Shown: one piece after another, positions 1,474 through 52,182 of the stretch
How the letters are laid out: each line of letters starts with the position of its first letter
Position numbering within the stretch: the first letter of the stretch is position 1
NCBI RefSeq assembly: GCF_009914755.1
Contig: NC_060931.1
Length of the DNA stretch: 64,000 bases
Direction: 5' to 3' (one strand)
DNA from: the human T2T-CHM13v2.0 reference genome, Homo sapiens
Program-made: the position numbers and the translations under genes
Notes under the pieces: generated by a model
The model's input: only the letters and a program-made list of their open reading frames with translations
Told to the model about the DNA's origin: nothing
Database searches by the model: none

Positions 1474-1545
1474 AGGGGGCACCCAGATTTGAACTGGGGA
1501 CCTCTTGATCTGCAGTCAAATGCTCTACCCCTGAGCTATACCCCC
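1474..1545 (-). tRNA. TRC-GCA13-1: tRNA-Cys (GCA), intact
   Basis: Reverse complement GGGGGTATAGCTCAGGGGTAGAGCATTTGACTGCAGATCAAGAGGTCCCCAGTTCAAATCTGGGTGCCCCCT; 72 nt, full cloverleaf, A and B boxes, U73. Symbol recalled, not verified. Confidence 0.97.
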
Positions 1546-1907
1546 AGTTACATTAGTAAGGTCCAATTAACAACCTTTCCCTGTGCAGCCACACCCAGAC
1601 CTGCTGTCCTAGATTCCGCTTCAGGATGGGTTTCTGAGTTACAAGGCCTGACTTGCTGCCAACTCAACACCGTGTCTTAGAGGAAGCAACCAGTTCCTTC
1701 TCCCACAGCTCTGCCACCTCTCCACTCTCAGTTCCTGAGTAAGTGCAGGGATCTGGGGAGCAGTCCCCCGACAGCTGGAAGGCTCTCTAGTGACACCTAT
1801 GTTGTGGGTTTTGTGCCGGGGCCTGCAAACAGAGACTCAAAATGCCCAATGGTTTGGCCAAGCCTGCAACACTTCAAAGATAGAACCCACATTTTCTGGA
1901 TACTGGA

Positions 1908-2078: not shown

Positions 2079-2456
2079 GTGCTTTGTTAGGGCAGCCCTA
2101 GAAAACTAAAACATTCCTCCACAATTATGTTGAATTCTCTCTGCTAAAGTAACTGGTGCAGTTTTTGTCTCAGAACTGGACCCTGAATGATACAGAAATA
2201 GCTACCAGTGGGGCACTAGGAAACATACCTTCAAGGAGGGTATTGGGATGGACTTGGTCTTGTCCTTGGTCTCTAAGGCAGTGCTGAGCACCTGGTTGGA
2301 TCCTGAATTGTAGGGGATGGCCATAGGAAGAAGGTCATAAAGGCACTGTTTCATAAGCTCATCAGCTTCCTTCTATGAGTGGACTGCACTATGGTCTCTA
2401 CTCAAGTAAAACTCGATTTTGTCAGTTCGGCTCAAGGAGGAAAATGAATTCTTTAA

Positions 2457-2528
2457 AGGGGGCACCCAGAGTTGATCCAGGGACCTCTTGATCTACAGTT
2501 AAATGCTCTACCACTGAGCTATAATTGA
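2457..2528 (-). pseudogene. TRY-GTA11-1: tRNA-Cys-derived pseudogene with GTA (Tyr) anticodon
   Basis: Reverse complement TCAATTATAGCTCAGTGGTAGAGCATTTAACTGTAGATCAAGAGGTCCCTGGATCAACTCTGGGTGCCCCCT; Cys body, 5' acceptor strand replaced by TCAAT, B box mutated. Symbol recalled, not verified. Confidence 0.88.
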
Positions 2529-8882: not shown

Positions 8883-9162
8883 AGAAGGAATATAAAGTTG
8901 GATCAGGCTGAATGTATTTAAATGGGCTCACTGAGCTGAGATTTTCCAGATTTAGTGTGTTAGCTCCACGGACTGGGAATGACTCTGAAAGGATATCTTC
9001 AAAGGGGACAGCTGGATTTGAACCAGAGACTTCTTTAATTTGCAGTCAAATGCAGACTATATCCACATTCTGCTAGTGTGGCTGACTGAAAAACAGGCCC
9101 AAAGGTAGCCTACACCAAATGAACTTGAAATGCCAGAGCTTCCTTGGTATGTTGTAGTGGAA
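8883..9162 (+). mobile_element. ERV-L gag remnant interrupted by a tRNA-Cys relic
   Basis: Translates RRNIKLDQAECI*MGSLS...FSVLA...[insert]...VWLTEKQAQR*PTPNELEMPELPWYVV, matching the HERV-L gag motif series. Confidence 0.7.
9003..9066 (-). pseudogene. tRNA-Cys relic, D-arm/A-box deleted, B box intact
   Basis: Reverse complement GTGGATATAGTCTGCATTTGACTGCAAATTAAAGAAGTCTCTGGTTCAAATCCAGCTGTCCCCT. Confidence 0.82.
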
Positions 9163-21495: not shown

Positions 21496-21908
21496 GCCTA
21501 CCAGATAACAAGGAGCTATACTATAATTGCCCAGTGTAAAATGGTAGTGACAAAGGGGGCACCTGGATTTGAACCAGGGACCTCTTGATCTGCAGTCAAA
21601 TGCTCTACCCCTGAACTATACCCCCCAAGGTACTCATCTTCTTTCAATAAAGATATATTAATAATCACAGTCATTCACAAGCTACGCTCTGGCCACTCTG
21701 TCTCCAGAGTGTGGAGTTATGTAATGCACAACAGAGCAGCTCTTCTGTACAACCCCCTCCACACCTGCCGGCACCTGGCCAATTAAGCTGCAGCCTTAGC
21801 TTTTTGGGAAAAGGAGAGTGGTGGGGTTAAATCCAGATATAGACATAGCTTGAGGGCCTGGGTTCGGGCCCTGGGCCTGATTGTTCTGGAGTGCAAGGAG
21901 CCCCTACT
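21496..21908 (+). repeat. tRNA-containing duplicated unit, probable donor (partner 23245-23677)
   Basis: gcctaccagataacaagg...gagcccctact repeated 1.75 kb downstream with few substitutions. Confidence 0.95.
21554..21625 (-). tRNA. TRC-GCA18-1: tRNA-Cys (GCA), D-stem C11U variant
   Basis: GGGGGTATAGTTCAGGGGTAGAGCATTTGACTGCAGATCAAGAGGTCCCTGGTTCAAATCCAGGTGCCCCCT; T4 terminator at 21538-21541. Symbol recalled, not verified. Confidence 0.94.
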
Positions 21909-23140: not shown

Positions 23141-23770
23141 GTTCAAGTGATCCTCCCGTGTCAGCCTCCCAAGTAGCTAGGACTACAGGTGTGAGTCACC
23201 ATGCCCAGCTAATTTTTTTAAAAATTATTTTTCGTAGAGACAGAGCCTACCAGATAACAAGGAGCTATTCTATAATTGCCCAGTGTAAAAGGATAGTGAC
23301 AAAGGGGGGGCACCTGGATTTGAACCAGGGACCTCTTGATCTGCAGTCAAATGCTCTACCCCTGAGCTATACCCCCAAGGTACTCATCTTCTTTCAATAA
23401 AGATGTATTAATAATCACAGTCATTCACAAGCTACGCTCTGGCCACCCTGTCTCCTGTAGCTCTCCAGGAGCTACAGGTGTGGAGTTATGTAATGCACAA
23501 CAGAGCAGCTCTTCTGTACAACCCCCTCCACACCTGCCAGCATCCGGCCAATTAAGCTGCAGCCTTAGCTTTTTGGGAAAAGGAGAATGGTGGGATTAAA
23601 TCCAGATGTAGACATAGCTTGAGGGCCTGGGTTTGGACCCTGGGCCTGATTGTTCTGGAGTGCAAAGAGCCCCTACTAGCCTCAAACTCCTGGCCTCAGG
23701 TGTTCCTGCGGCCTCAGCCTCCCAAAGTGCTGAGCCAAACTCCCAAAGTGCTAAGCCAGTGTGCCCAGCC
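23141..23770 (-). mobile_element. AluJ-like element split in two (23141-23244, 23678-23770) by the tRNA duplication unit
   Basis: ...gtagagacaga | insert | tagcctcaaactcctggcctcagg...cccagcc are consecutive Alu segments. Confidence 0.85.
23305..23376 (-). tRNA. TRC-GCA10-1: tRNA-Cys (GCA), C73 discriminator variant
   Basis: GGGGGTATAGCTCAGGGGTAGAGCATTTGACTGCAGATCAAGAGGTCCCTGGTTCAAATCCAGGTGCCCCCC; T4 terminator at 23287-23290. Symbol recalled, not verified. Confidence 0.95.
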
Positions 23771-41182: not shown

Positions 41183-41670
41183 GTATGTTTTTTGAAGACT
41201 TTTCTCCCTTTCACTGGCCCCGGATTGAGTTGCTTTTTCTCTTTTCTGTTTTTTTTTTTTTCCTTAATTTAAGATTTTGTTTGCAATTCTAGCACGTATT
41301 ACTACGTTGTCATTATTTCCATCTGGCTCTGAGCATGTCTTAGGCAGGAGGAATGTTCAAATATTCCTCATCTGCATATGTCTGGAGCCTTGGCACTCAA
41401 TAGATGCTCAAAAAAAATGTCAGTTGAGTTTAACCAAGGAGGGTTGATTGGCCTTTCCATTCTTAAATTTCAACAAGGCTATTTATGCATGTTTTGCCTT
41501 GGGACTGAGGAAGCATAGGCAGAAATGTTGTGAAGACAAGAAAGGGATGGTTCATGGCAGTAAGGAAGACCACTATTTAGAATTGGTGTTGCCAGCTCCT
41601 GAAAGCAAGCTTGAAGTCCTAGGCATGTCCTTACAAGTGAAAGGTGGCAGTTGTGAAGTCACAGCAGGTC

Positions 41671-41742
41671 AAAAGGATGGCCCGGAGGTAGAGCATTTGA
41701 CTGAAGGTCAGAAAGTACTTGATACAAAGAGAGGAACAAAAG
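41671..41742 (+). pseudogene. Highly decayed tRNA-Cys relic (anticodon GAA), only plus-strand copy
   Basis: Ungapped 72-nt alignment to tRNA-Cys; core ggtagagcatttgactgaaggtca 22/24 identical; acceptor and T arms destroyed. Confidence 0.7.
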
Positions 41743-44095: not shown

Positions 44096-44167
44096 AGGAG
44101 ACACCTGGACTTGAAGCAGGAACCTCTTGGCGTGTAGGCAGAGGCTCTTCCACCAAGCTATACCCTC
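44096..44167 (-). pseudogene. Decayed tRNA-Cys (anticodon ACA)
   Basis: Reverse complement GAGGGTATAGCTTGGTGGAAGAGCCTCTGCCTACACGCCAAGAGGTTCCTGCTTCAAGTCCAGGTGTCTCCT; ungapped 72 nt, anticodon stem broken; T5 at 44081-44085. Confidence 0.8.
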
Positions 44168-44687
44168 TACAGTGGCAGGCTCCTCTCATTAGCGCCTTTC
44201 AAGGCTGCAGTCCCACGCCTCTTCTGATCTCTGGCTGTTCCCGGGCTCTCACTTTCGGGGAACTGGTGCTGGCGCCCCACCGCCACGACTCACTCACGGA
44301 TTCACTCCTACACGTCACCAGCATCACCCTCCTGCCCAGGTGCCGCTCCCTTTTATGGAGTGTCTCTCCGGGTCCACCTCCCTCCAGCTGCTGCTTTGCT
44401 GTCCCTGGGGCGAGGGCTGTGAGAGCGAGGCCTGCAGAGCTCCCCGTAACCATAGCTCTCACCTTGCCTCAGGCCCGGGACACTGGCCAGGGAGCTCAAG
44501 GCCTCGTCCTGCCTCCTCTGGGATCGAGTAGGACTGCAAGAAGAACCTGTCCGGGACACCCGTTCTCCTCCCTTCCCTCACCGGCCTGACCGTCTTCTCT
44601 CTGCAGTTGCTGTTGTCCTGCTATTAGCACTCCCTGCCCCTCCTCTACTCGGATTCTTACTCCCTGATTCCCATACGGAAAATCGTG

Positions 44688-47374: not shown

Positions 47375-47691
<317 letters not shown>

Positions 47692-51855: not shown

Positions 51856-51927
51856 AGAGGGCACCCATATTTGAACCAGGGACCACTTGATCTGCAGCCA
51901 AATGGTTTACTCCTCAGCTATACCCCC
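51856..51927 (-). pseudogene. Degenerate tRNA-Cys (GCA)
   Basis: Reverse complement GGGGGTATAGCTGAGGAGTAAACCATTTGGCTGCAGATCAAGTGGTCCCTGGTTCAAATATGGGTGCCCTCT; D and T stems broken. Confidence 0.88.
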
Positions 51928-52182
51928 TTGCCTGAGGGACATTCCTTCTTAGCACATTTCACCTGTGTAGCCACACCCAAGACACTACATTTACTATAAT
52001 ACCTAATGTTTTTGTGCAATTATTTTGTTCTAAATAAATTGTAAGAGCTTCATATATATAATTTAAAAAATTATTTGTGGTAGTACTATCACTACTACCA
52101 CCATCATCATTGATGACAATGACATATGGAATTGAAGCAAATTGCCCCAAATCAGTGTTAAGTGACAGAATCAAGAACTAAA

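What the first reader, a model, noticed from the sequence alone, without database searches (positions are those of the whole stretch)
1566..1600. Positionally fixed upstream element (-20 to -52) shared by tRNA copies up to 60 kb apart
Seen: cctgtgcagccacaccca (1580-1597) and cctgtgtagccacaccca (51962-51979) match 17/18, and both start exactly 35 nt upstream of their tRNA 5' ends. The decayed copy at 44167 has aggctgcagtcccacgcc at the same offset (44202). The gene at 61053 has cagccgcacgca at -39. Adjacent blocks also align: ttaacaacctttc, ttagcacatttc, ttagcgcctttc. Positions -1 to -20 are unrelated. Established: TFIIIB contacts roughly this upstream region, and CCACACCC is a KLF/SP GT box. 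Inference: this is a cluster-specific upstream Pol III element, or at least proof that these copies arose as DNA with 5' flank, not from mature tRNA.
Basis: partly seen in the sequence, partly recalled or inferred. Interest (0 to 1): 0.7.

Follow-up and report, generated by a model that had tools for sequence, protein, structure and literature searches.

The report
Shared old flank of tRNA-Cys genes
A 40-base stretch sitting 19-58 bases upstream of many cysteine-tRNA genes in the human chromosome 7 cluster is real and shared, but it looks mostly like a leftover of the DNA that was copied along with the gene, not a proven control element.

Summary
All seven quoted strings are at the stated coordinates. 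The 17-mer occurs twice in the window against 0.2 expected.

A profile of the -58..-19 block finds it in 21 of 27 chr7q36 tRNA-Cys copies. It finds none in the other 6 chr7 copies, which include window genes 21625, 23376 and 61053, and none in 14 tRNA-Cys copies on other chromosomes. Its distance to the tRNA is fixed at 48-52 nt.

The copies clearly spread as DNA. Recent paralogues share 400-1800 bp of flank, and older lineages still align out to about -160.

Evidence for a selected Pol III element is weak:
- Within recent families the block changes as fast as the distal flank (34 observed vs 35.4 expected).
- It is kept equally well next to degenerate and intact tRNAs (rho -0.21).
- The exact GT box survives in only 6 of 21 copies.
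- In families B and C the "unrelated" -1..-18 stretch evolves 2.7 times faster than the distal flank, as published transcription-associated mutagenesis predicts.

A trend remains: intact families keep the block better than degenerate ones (P = 0.086).

Verdict: an inherited flank, possibly under weak TFIIIB-related constraint. Low interest.

The parts
1474..1545 (-). TRC-GCA13-1, intact tRNA-Cys(GCA) gene
   Evidence: ARAGORN; Rfam tRNA 67.9 bits
1546..1563 (-). Inner 5' flank (-1..-18). It has no detectable similarity between lineages.
   Evidence: 1 of 66 lineage pairs with z > 3. Mean pairwise identity 0.27 at -10..-1 and 0.39 at -20..-11. Within families B and C there are 19 changes against 7.0 expected.
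1564..1603 (-). Shared upstream block (-19..-58): GGGTGTGG at -51..-44, CACA at -40..-37, GAAAGG at -34..-29, TTAATT at -25..-20
   Evidence: Sequence. Block profile hit at 1604..1561, E = 1e-6; this copy is one of the profile's 12 training sequences. Alignment of 21 copies.
51856..51927 (-). Unannotated degenerate tRNA-Cys copy, 87% identical to the 1545 gene
   Evidence: BLAST; ARAGORN; Rfam 29.7 bits against a gathering score of 29
51948..51982 (-). Same block upstream of the degenerate copy, at the same offset. Its closest relatives are chr7:150777189 and 150846743.
   Evidence: Profile E = 2.9e-6. BLAST homology -74..+58 to the 150777189 copy at 85% identity.
44096..44167 (-).
   Evidence: Global alignment to the 1545 unit
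44185..44217 (-). Weak vestige of the block (ttgaaaggcgctaatgag)
   Evidence: Profile E = 0.49, score 7.7; alignment. Not significant on its own.
41612..41653 (+). Weak vestige of the block upstream of another decayed tRNA-Cys relic at about 41671-41742 on the + strand
   Evidence: Profile E = 0.32. A 17-nt exact tRNA match at 41687-41703. Alignment.
9003..9066 (-). Decayed tRNA-Cys-like relic with a D-arm deletion. A possible block vestige (ttggtgtaggctac) lies about 40-55 nt upstream, seen by eye only.
   Evidence: Rfam tRNA 29.1 bits; alignment
21554..21625 (-). TRC-GCA18-1, an intact cluster gene without the block. It shares a different flank with 23376.
   Evidence: No profile hit. 91% identity over -283..+129 with the 23376 copy.
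23305..23376 (-). TRC-GCA10-1, an intact cluster gene without the block
60982..61053 (-). TRC-GCA11-1, an intact cluster gene in a GC-rich flank. The block is not detectable.
   Evidence: No profile hit at E <= 100. Flank z = 0.3 and 1.0.

Best explanation
The element is the best-preserved stretch of an old 5' flank that was copied together with the tRNA-Cys gene each time the chr7q36 cluster grew by tandem or segmental DNA duplication. The ancestral unit reached at least about 160 nt upstream and a few tens of nt downstream.

It looks like an isolated, positionally fixed island for two reasons. First, the 18 nt next to the gene have been scrambled by substitutions at an elevated rate, which is transcription-associated mutagenesis at the unwound start region; this changes bases but not length, so the offset stays at 48-52 nt. 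Second, the more distal flank has decayed and picked up indels.

Shown: common descent, the extent of homology, the fixed offset, the fast inner flank, and the absence of measurable constraint in recent paralogues.

Inferred: that no sequence-specific factor binding is needed to explain the pattern.
For: (1) The block is in 21 of 27 chr7 copies. It is in 0 of the 6 other chr7 copies and 0 of 14 copies on chr1, 3, 4, 8, 14, 15 and 17. The profile was built from 12 of the 21; the other 9 are their close paralogues.

(2) Recent paralogues share long flanks on both sides: -603..+1184 at 93.5%, -508..+120 at 85.7%, -283..+129 at 91%.

(3) Old lineages keep homology beyond the block. The -160..-59 stretch gives z > 3 in 12 of 66 pairs, and 7 of those 12 lie within 7 nt of register (9 within 16 nt). 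In those 12 pairs local identity is about 70% distally and about 75% in the block (my sums).

(4) Within six recent block-bearing families, the block shows 34 changes against 35.4 expected from each family's own -300..-61 rate (O/E 0.96). The tRNA body shows 38 against 63.6 (O/E 0.60, P = 0.0004).

(5) The inner flank -18..-1 shows 19 changes against 7.0 expected in families B and C (2.7-fold, P = 1e-4). This matches the published roughly 4-fold excess divergence of the 20 nt upstream of human tRNA genes (PMC6130373, passages read).

(6) Block identity to a leave-lineage-out consensus does not rise with tRNA intactness: rho = -0.21, P = 0.36. The degenerate family F scores 0.76, while intact genes score 0.47-0.82.

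(7) The 200 nt upstream of the 1545 gene match nothing else in the genome (1 candidate, itself), so the block is not a dispersed repeat.
Against: Among 12 old lineages the block is the best-conserved upstream stretch. Mean pairwise identity is 0.47-0.60 at -50..-21, against 0.05-0.47 in the other 22 upstream deciles. It is detectable in 29 of 66 pairs, against 12 of 66 for a distal segment 2.5 times as long.

Families with largely intact tRNAs (A2, B, C, D) show O/E 0.78 in the block, and degenerate families (E, F) show 1.34. The contrast gives P = 0.086 for the block as defined beforehand, and P = 0.019 for a core at -47..-28 that I chose after looking.

The published average is 1.5-fold excess divergence at -21..-40, so a flank-level rate there could itself hide some constraint.

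The block lies where TFIIIB/TBP sits.

Alignment quality may also inflate apparent decay in the distal flank.
Confidence: 0.6

Rival explanations
1. The block is a weakly selected upstream promoter element of this tRNA-Cys lineage. An A-rich core (consensus aAAAGGT, with variants AAATAT and TTATAG) lies about 28-35 nt before the mature 5' end and would act as a TATA-like box that helps TBP-Brf1 (TFIIIB) settle. A GT-rich part near -50 would act as an accessory site. This layout resembles 7SL, 4.5SH and 4.5SI genes.
For: The block is the best-conserved upstream stretch among 12 lineages, and the highest column frequencies are at CTGGGTG, CACA and AAA.GGT. Spacing is fixed at 48-52 nt. Intact families show O/E 0.78 against 1.34 in degenerate ones (P = 0.086), and 0.58 against 1.79 in the post hoc core (P = 0.019). 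In non-tRNA type-2 genes a TATA-like box at -31/-24 from the start site and a CRE or C/EBP site near -50 affect transcription (PMC7279448, abstract and section 17). TBP binds about 25 nt upstream of tRNA genes, where variability dips (PMC6130373).
Against: There is no overall rate reduction in recent paralogues (O/E 0.96). The block is kept as well beside degenerate tRNAs as beside intact ones. The intact cluster genes 21625, 23376, 61053 and chr7:150491964 lack it. The exact GT box is in only 6 of 21 copies. The CAGGTG and TTAATT sub-motifs are not shared across lineages (by eye). The transcription start site is unknown, so the TATA-like register is a guess.
Confidence: 0.3
2. Gene conversion between cluster members, seeded in the nearly identical tRNA bodies, repeatedly homogenised the gene together with some tens of bases of flank. 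The proximal flank would then look younger than the distal flank.
For: Similarity falls with distance from the gene on both sides. tRNA bodies remain 0.8-0.92 identical across lineages.
Against: Conversion tracts running from the gene would also homogenise -1..-18, which is the least similar stretch. By eye, block variants and T-stem variants group the copies in similar ways, for example 1545 with families D and F, and family A with 150873167, which gives no sign of mosaicism. No formal recombination test was run.
Confidence: 0.06
3. The GGGTGTGG (CCACACCC) part is a working KLF/SP GT box that recruits a Pol II-type activator to the cluster.
For: An exact 8-mer lies at -49..-51 in 6 copies, including 1545 and 51927. 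That CCACACCC is a KLF/SP core is recalled knowledge and was not tested here.
Against: The exact 8-mer is in only 6 of 21 block-bearing copies, in 3 of 12 lineages. One of the six is the degenerate copy 51927, and a second (chr7:150777189) has a damaged 3' end, its tRNA match stopping at position 60 of 72. PMC7279448 (section 17) states that tRNA genes were left out of its survey because they lack Sp1/CREB sites, and that Sp1 sites contribute at most about 28% in 4.5SH.
Confidence: 0.04

Closest known systems
Anticodon-family-specific upstream motifs of animal tRNA genes (Zhang, Lukoszek, Mueller-Roeber & Ignatova, NAR 2011, PMC3082873)
   Same: These are short motifs found within 100 nt upstream and shared by genes of one tRNA family; one example there centres at -40 to -30. 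Single-anticodon families, which include Cys in their supplementary table, are said to share one to three motifs (section 12 read; supplement file 2 searched).
   Different: That paper argues the motifs do not come from simple duplication. Here the homology runs well beyond the motif and tracks duplication families, so shared descent is sufficient. Their Cys motif would be in Supplementary Figure S4B, which I could not see, so I cannot say whether this exact block is already in print.
Transcription-associated mutagenesis at tRNA loci (Thornlow et al., PNAS 2018, PMC6130373)
   Same: The 20 nt upstream of the gene diverge several-fold faster than the background. This explains why -1..-18 is 'unrelated' while the sequence beyond it still aligns. 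Here the excess is 2.7-fold in families B and C.
   Different: That paper reports averages over all human tRNA genes compared between species. Here the pattern is seen between paralogues of one cluster, and only families B and C show it clearly.
Upstream elements of non-tRNA type-2 Pol III genes: 7SL, 4.5SH, 4.5SI, EBER (Tatosyan et al., IJMS 2020, PMC7279448)
   Same: The layout is a TATA-like box about 30 nt upstream plus a factor site near -50, sometimes with Sp1 sites. The block has an A-rich core near -30 and a GT-rich part near -50.
   Different: Those elements were shown by mutation to affect transcription, and nothing of that kind is shown here. Those positions are counted from the start site, which is unknown for these tRNA genes. 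The paper excludes tRNA genes as lacking such sites.

Membership tests
DNA-level tandem or segmental duplicates of a tRNA gene unit | Homology extends beyond the transcribed region, upstream of the start site | tested here: met
   The block at -19..-58 is in 21 of 27 copies. Distal homology reaches about -160 in 12 of 66 lineage pairs, of which 7 lie within 7 nt of register.
DNA-level tandem or segmental duplicates of a tRNA gene unit | Recent copies share long flanks on both sides | tested here: met
   -603..+1184 at 93.5%, -1182..+138 at 94.2%, -508..+120 at 85.7% and -283..+129 at 91%
Anticodon-family-specific upstream tRNA motif (PMC3082873) | A motif within 100 nt upstream shared by genes with the same anticodon | tested here: met
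   21 of 27 chr7 tRNA-Cys copies have it, at a fixed offset. 0 of 14 tRNA-Cys copies on other chromosomes have it, so it is specific to the cluster and not to the anticodon.
Anticodon-family-specific upstream tRNA motif (PMC3082873) | Not explained by simple duplication of the genes, as that paper claims | tested here: not met
   Homology continues outside the motif and follows the duplication families.
TATA-like box of type-2 Pol III promoters | An A/T-rich heptamer at -31/-24 from the transcription start site | tested here: inconclusive
   The consensus is aAAAGGT at about -34..-28 from the mature 5' end, with variants AAATAT and TTATAG. The start site is unknown, so the register cannot be fixed.
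TATA-like box of type-2 Pol III promoters | Mutation lowers transcription or shifts the start site | not testable with these tools
   Needs a reporter or in vitro transcription assay.
KLF/SP GT box | The CCACACCC core is conserved across the copies that carry the element | tested here: not met
   The exact 8-mer is in 6 of 21 copies and 3 of 12 lineages.
KLF/SP GT box | Factor occupancy | not testable with these tools
   No ChIP data are available here.
Sequence under purifying selection | A lower substitution rate than the neighbouring neutral flank | tested here: inconclusive
   Recent families: O/E 0.96 overall, 0.78 in intact families (P = 0.17), 1.34 in degenerate families. Old lineages: the block is the best-conserved upstream stretch.
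Transcription-associated mutagenesis pattern (PMC6130373) | The inner 5' flank diverges faster than the outer flank and background | tested here: met
   Families B and C: 19 changes against 7.0 expected, P = 1e-4. All six families: 22 against 15.9, P = 0.086.

The most novel reading that the evidence does not exclude
The block is a working, lineage-specific upstream promoter module of the chr7q36 tRNA-Cys cluster. It would consist of a TATA-like core near -30 plus a GT-rich site near -50 at a fixed distance from the gene, giving this subset of cysteine tRNA genes a shared regulation that the block-less cluster genes and the tRNA-Cys genes on other chromosomes lack. That would make it a rare example of a sequence-specific upstream element at mammalian tRNA genes.
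Probability: 0.25. Interest if true: 0.5.

Novelty: new member of a known kind. Interest (0 to 1): 0.2.

Why it matters
If the block were functional, it would give a handle on why some members of a large and fast-evolving tRNA gene family are used and others are not. It would also be a concrete upstream element to mutate at mammalian tRNA genes, where such elements are generally thought absent.

As it stands, the main value is as a worked example. A positionally fixed "motif" upstream of clustered tRNA genes can arise from shared descent plus a mutation hotspot next to the gene, without selection. Motif searches on tRNA flanks need to control for paralogy.

Tried and rejected
- **Dispersed repeat.** Rejected. 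The 200 nt upstream of the 1545 gene match only themselves in the genome. Genome-wide, the 17-mer with up to 1 mismatch gives 78 places against 6 for the reversed control. Only 3 of the 78 lie next to a tRNA-Cys, and 13 are one chr17 tandem array.
- **Pan-tRNA-Cys element.** Rejected. 0 of 14 copies outside chr7 have the block. The five tested pairings of the chr14-type flank with chr7 flanks give z from -1.3 to 0.4.
- **Element at gene 61053.** Not supported.
- **E-box (CAGGTG) or TTAATT as the conserved core.** By eye, neither is shared across lineages.
- **Whole-cluster download.** I fetched about 0.4-0.8 kb around each copy instead, so flanks beyond about -500/+200 could not be compared for 13 chr7 copies.
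- **Cross-species conservation, ChIP and polymorphism data.** No tool held them.
- **Literature.** Searches for the chr7 tRNA-Cys cluster returned nothing that describes its upstream flanks; I judged this from the listings, and the single one search hit (PMC6779403) was not opened. The preprint 10.1101/2025.06.09.658696 has no mention of Cys or chr7.

Full report
**What is there**

The window is T2T chr7:150536001-150600000, inside the 7q36 tRNA-Cys cluster. ARAGORN finds five tRNA-Cys(GCA) genes on the minus strand, with 5' ends at 1545, 21625/6, 23376, 51927/8 and 61053. Rfam adds weak tRNA hits at 2463-2523 and 9003-9066.

On the tRNA strand, GGGTGTGGCTGCACAGG occupies -35..-51 of TRC-GCA13-1. 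GGGTGTGGCTACACAGG occupies the same positions upstream of an unannotated, degenerate copy at 51856-51927.

This is not chance:
- The 17-mer with up to 3 mismatches gives 2 matches in the window against 0.20 expected, and 0 of 100 shuffles reach 2.
- The two 100-nt flanks score z = 9.3 against 500 shuffles.

**How far the element reaches**

The window's genome could be searched. A 27-nt tRNA-Cys core with up to 3 mismatches hits 37 places, 22 of them on chr7. Five more degenerate chr7 copies came, giving 27 chr7 copies between 150.49 and 150.89 Mb. I extracted their flanks, plus 14 tRNA-Cys copies from chr1, 3, 4, 8, 14, 15 and 17 as controls.

I built a profile of the block from one representative of each of 12 lineages. 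It gave these results:
- 21 of 27 chr7 copies hit at E <= 0.004. Twelve are the training sequences and nine are their close paralogues.
- 0 of the other 6 chr7 copies hit. These are 150491964, the pseudogene at window 2528, window 21625, 23376 and 61053, and 150817937.
- 0 of the 14 copies on other chromosomes hit.

The aligned column at -51 lies 48-52 nt from tRNA position 1 in all 21 copies.

In the window the profile finds the two strong copies. It also finds two weak vestiges, at 41612-41653 on the + strand (E = 0.32) and at 44185-44217 on the - strand (E = 0.49). Each lies next to a decayed tRNA-Cys relic. The claim for gene 61053 is not supported.

The consensus is ctGGGTGtggctaCACAggt-aAAAGGTgttaattag.

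**Origin**

Recent paralogues share long flanks on both sides:
- -603..+1184 at 93.5%
- -1182..+138 at 94.2%
- -508..+120 at 85.7%
- -283..+129 at 91%

By their coordinates, families B (+), C (-) and F (+) recur with a period of roughly 24-34 kb, and the D-E gene pair recurs 41 kb away. This is segmental duplication.

Older lineages still align beyond the block. The -160..-59 segment gives z > 3 in 12 of 66 lineage pairs. Seven of those 12 lie within 7 nt of register, two more within 16 nt, and three are clearly out of register. A second, lower conservation peak lies at -120..-101.

The 200 nt upstream of the 1545 gene match nothing else in the genome. The copies therefore spread as DNA in a unit of at least about 230 bp.

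**Is the block selected?**

Evidence that it stands out, among the 12 lineages:

| Region | Mean pairwise identity | Pairs with z > 3 |
|---|---|---|
| -50..-21 (within the block) | 0.47-0.60 | 29 of 66 (tested as -58..-19) |
| other 22 upstream deciles | 0.05-0.47 | 12 of 66 (tested as -160..-59) |
| -10..-1 | 0.27 | 1 of 66 (tested as -18..-1) |
| tRNA body | 0.80-0.92 | not tested |
| downstream +73..+172 | 0.01-0.40 (deciles +81..+190) | 3 of 66 |

Evidence that the difference is small: in the 12 pairs where the distal flank aligns, local identity is about 70% distally and about 75% in the block (my sums).

The cleanest test uses recent families, where neutral flank is still alignable. I counted parsimony changes per site in six block-bearing families and compared them with each family's own rate at -300..-61:

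| Region | Observed | Expected | O/E | P |
|---|---|---|---|---|
| Block -58..-19 | 34 | 35.4 | 0.96 | not significant |
| -100..-59 | 36 | 37.2 | 0.97 | not significant |
| tRNA body | 38 | 63.6 | 0.60 | 0.0004 |
| Inner flank -18..-1, all six families | 22 | 15.9 | 1.38 | 0.086 |
| Inner flank -18..-1, families B and C | 19 | 7.0 | 2.72 | 1e-4 |

Splitting the families gives O/E 0.78 in the block for those with largely intact tRNAs (19 against 24.2, P = 0.17). The degenerate families E and F give 1.34 (15 against 11.2). The contrast has P = 0.086 for the block defined beforehand, and P = 0.019 for a core at -47..-28 that I picked after seeing the data.

Pointing the other way, block identity to a leave-lineage-out consensus does not rise with tRNA intactness (rho = -0.21, P = 0.36). 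The degenerate family F scores 0.76. The exact GT box GGGTGTGG survives in only 6 of 21 copies, in 3 of 12 lineages.

**Mechanism I think most likely (about 0.6)**

This is an inherited flank. The 18 nt next to the gene lost all similarity through the elevated substitution rate that Thornlow et al. describe for the 20 nt upstream of human tRNA genes: about 4-fold excess divergence, about 1.5-fold at -21..-40, and a dip where TBP sits near -25 (PMC6130373, passages read). Substitutions do not change length, so the offset stays fixed. The distal flank decays at the ordinary rate and accumulates indels. What remains is an apparent island at -19..-58.

**Main rival (about 0.3)**

The A-rich core near -30 and the GT-rich part near -50 are weakly selected because they help TFIIIB placement. 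This would be analogous to the TATA-like box at -31/-24 and the site near -50 shown by mutation in 4.5SH, 4.5SI and 7SL genes (PMC7279448, abstract and section 17). The trend in intact against degenerate families and the among-lineage peak favour this reading. The flat overall rate, the block-less intact genes and the well-kept blocks beside pseudogenes speak against it.

Gene conversion (about 0.06) would not leave -1..-18 as the least similar stretch. A working KLF/SP site (about 0.04) is contradicted by the poor conservation of the 8-mer.

**Comparison with what is known**

Family-specific upstream motifs of animal tRNA genes are in print (PMC3082873, section 12 read). Cys is listed there as a single-anticodon family, and its motifs would be in Supplementary Figure S4B, which I could not see (file 1 was not searchable). 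That paper argues against a duplication origin. Here duplication suffices.

My searches for the chr7 tRNA-Cys cluster returned nothing that describes its flanks; I judged this from the listings, and the single one search hit (PMC6779403) was not opened. Thornlow et al. 2020 note only that tRNA-Cys genes evolve fast and lack a core eutherian orthologue (PMC6961574, one passage).

**Verdict**

The DNA-duplication inference is supported. The promoter-element inference is not supported, though it is not excluded. This is a new instance of a known kind of pattern and of low interest.

Noticed in passing
window 2453-2528 (-): The pseudogene annotated TRY-GTA11-1 (tRNA-Tyr) is by sequence a tRNA-Cys-derived copy. 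It is 89.6% identical to the 1545 gene over 67 nt, and its anticodon reads GTA where the Cys genes have GCA. The 5' end of its acceptor stem is replaced, and it lacks the upstream block.
   Followed up: partly
window 51856-51927 (-), 9003-9066 (-), about 41671-41742 (+), about 44096-44167 (-): Four tRNA-Cys relics are not in the supplied gene table. One is degenerate but still scored as tRNA by ARAGORN and Rfam (29.7 bits). One has a D-arm deletion (Rfam 29.1 bits). Two are strongly decayed and face each other across about 2.4 kb.
   Followed up: partly
L005 (chr14:67168288-67168659); chr15:77607682, chr17:39696887, chr1:93362101, chr3:17702206: Five tRNA-Cys copies on five different chromosomes share their 5' flank at 91-96% identity: four over about 285 nt and the chr3 copy over 181 nt. 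In the four longer copies the first 114 nt or so are a high-copy repeat (1871 first-look candidates), probably Alu. This is a young, dispersed duplication family with a flank unrelated to the chr7 block. The means of dispersal is unknown.
   Followed up: partly
chr7:150766630-150828916 (loci L002, L004, L040, L044-L047, L049): Families B (+ strand), C (- strand) and F (+ strand) of tRNA-Cys copies recur with a period of roughly 24-34 kb. The D-E gene pair, 1.3 kb apart, recurs 41 kb away. This indicates multi-gene segmental duplications inside the cluster (coordinates; identities).
   Followed up: partly
families B and C against A2, D, E and G: The excess of changes in the 18 nt next to the gene is confined to families B and C (8 and 11 changes in 18 sites). 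Pairs D, E and G show 0 changes there, and A2 (not printed separately) also comes out at 0 by subtraction. If this excess marks germline transcription, only some cluster genes may be active. The numbers are small.
   Followed up: no
window 47573-47689 (-): An Rfam Metazoa_SRP hit of 76.4 bits lies inside a stretch masked as repeat. It is most likely an Alu fragment and not an SRP RNA gene.
   Followed up: no
chr17:83092870-83093474 (-): A tandem array carries 13 copies of GGGTGTGTCTGCACAGG at spacings of about 34-60 nt. It turned up among the one-mismatch matches to the motif and is unrelated to tRNA genes.
   Followed up: no
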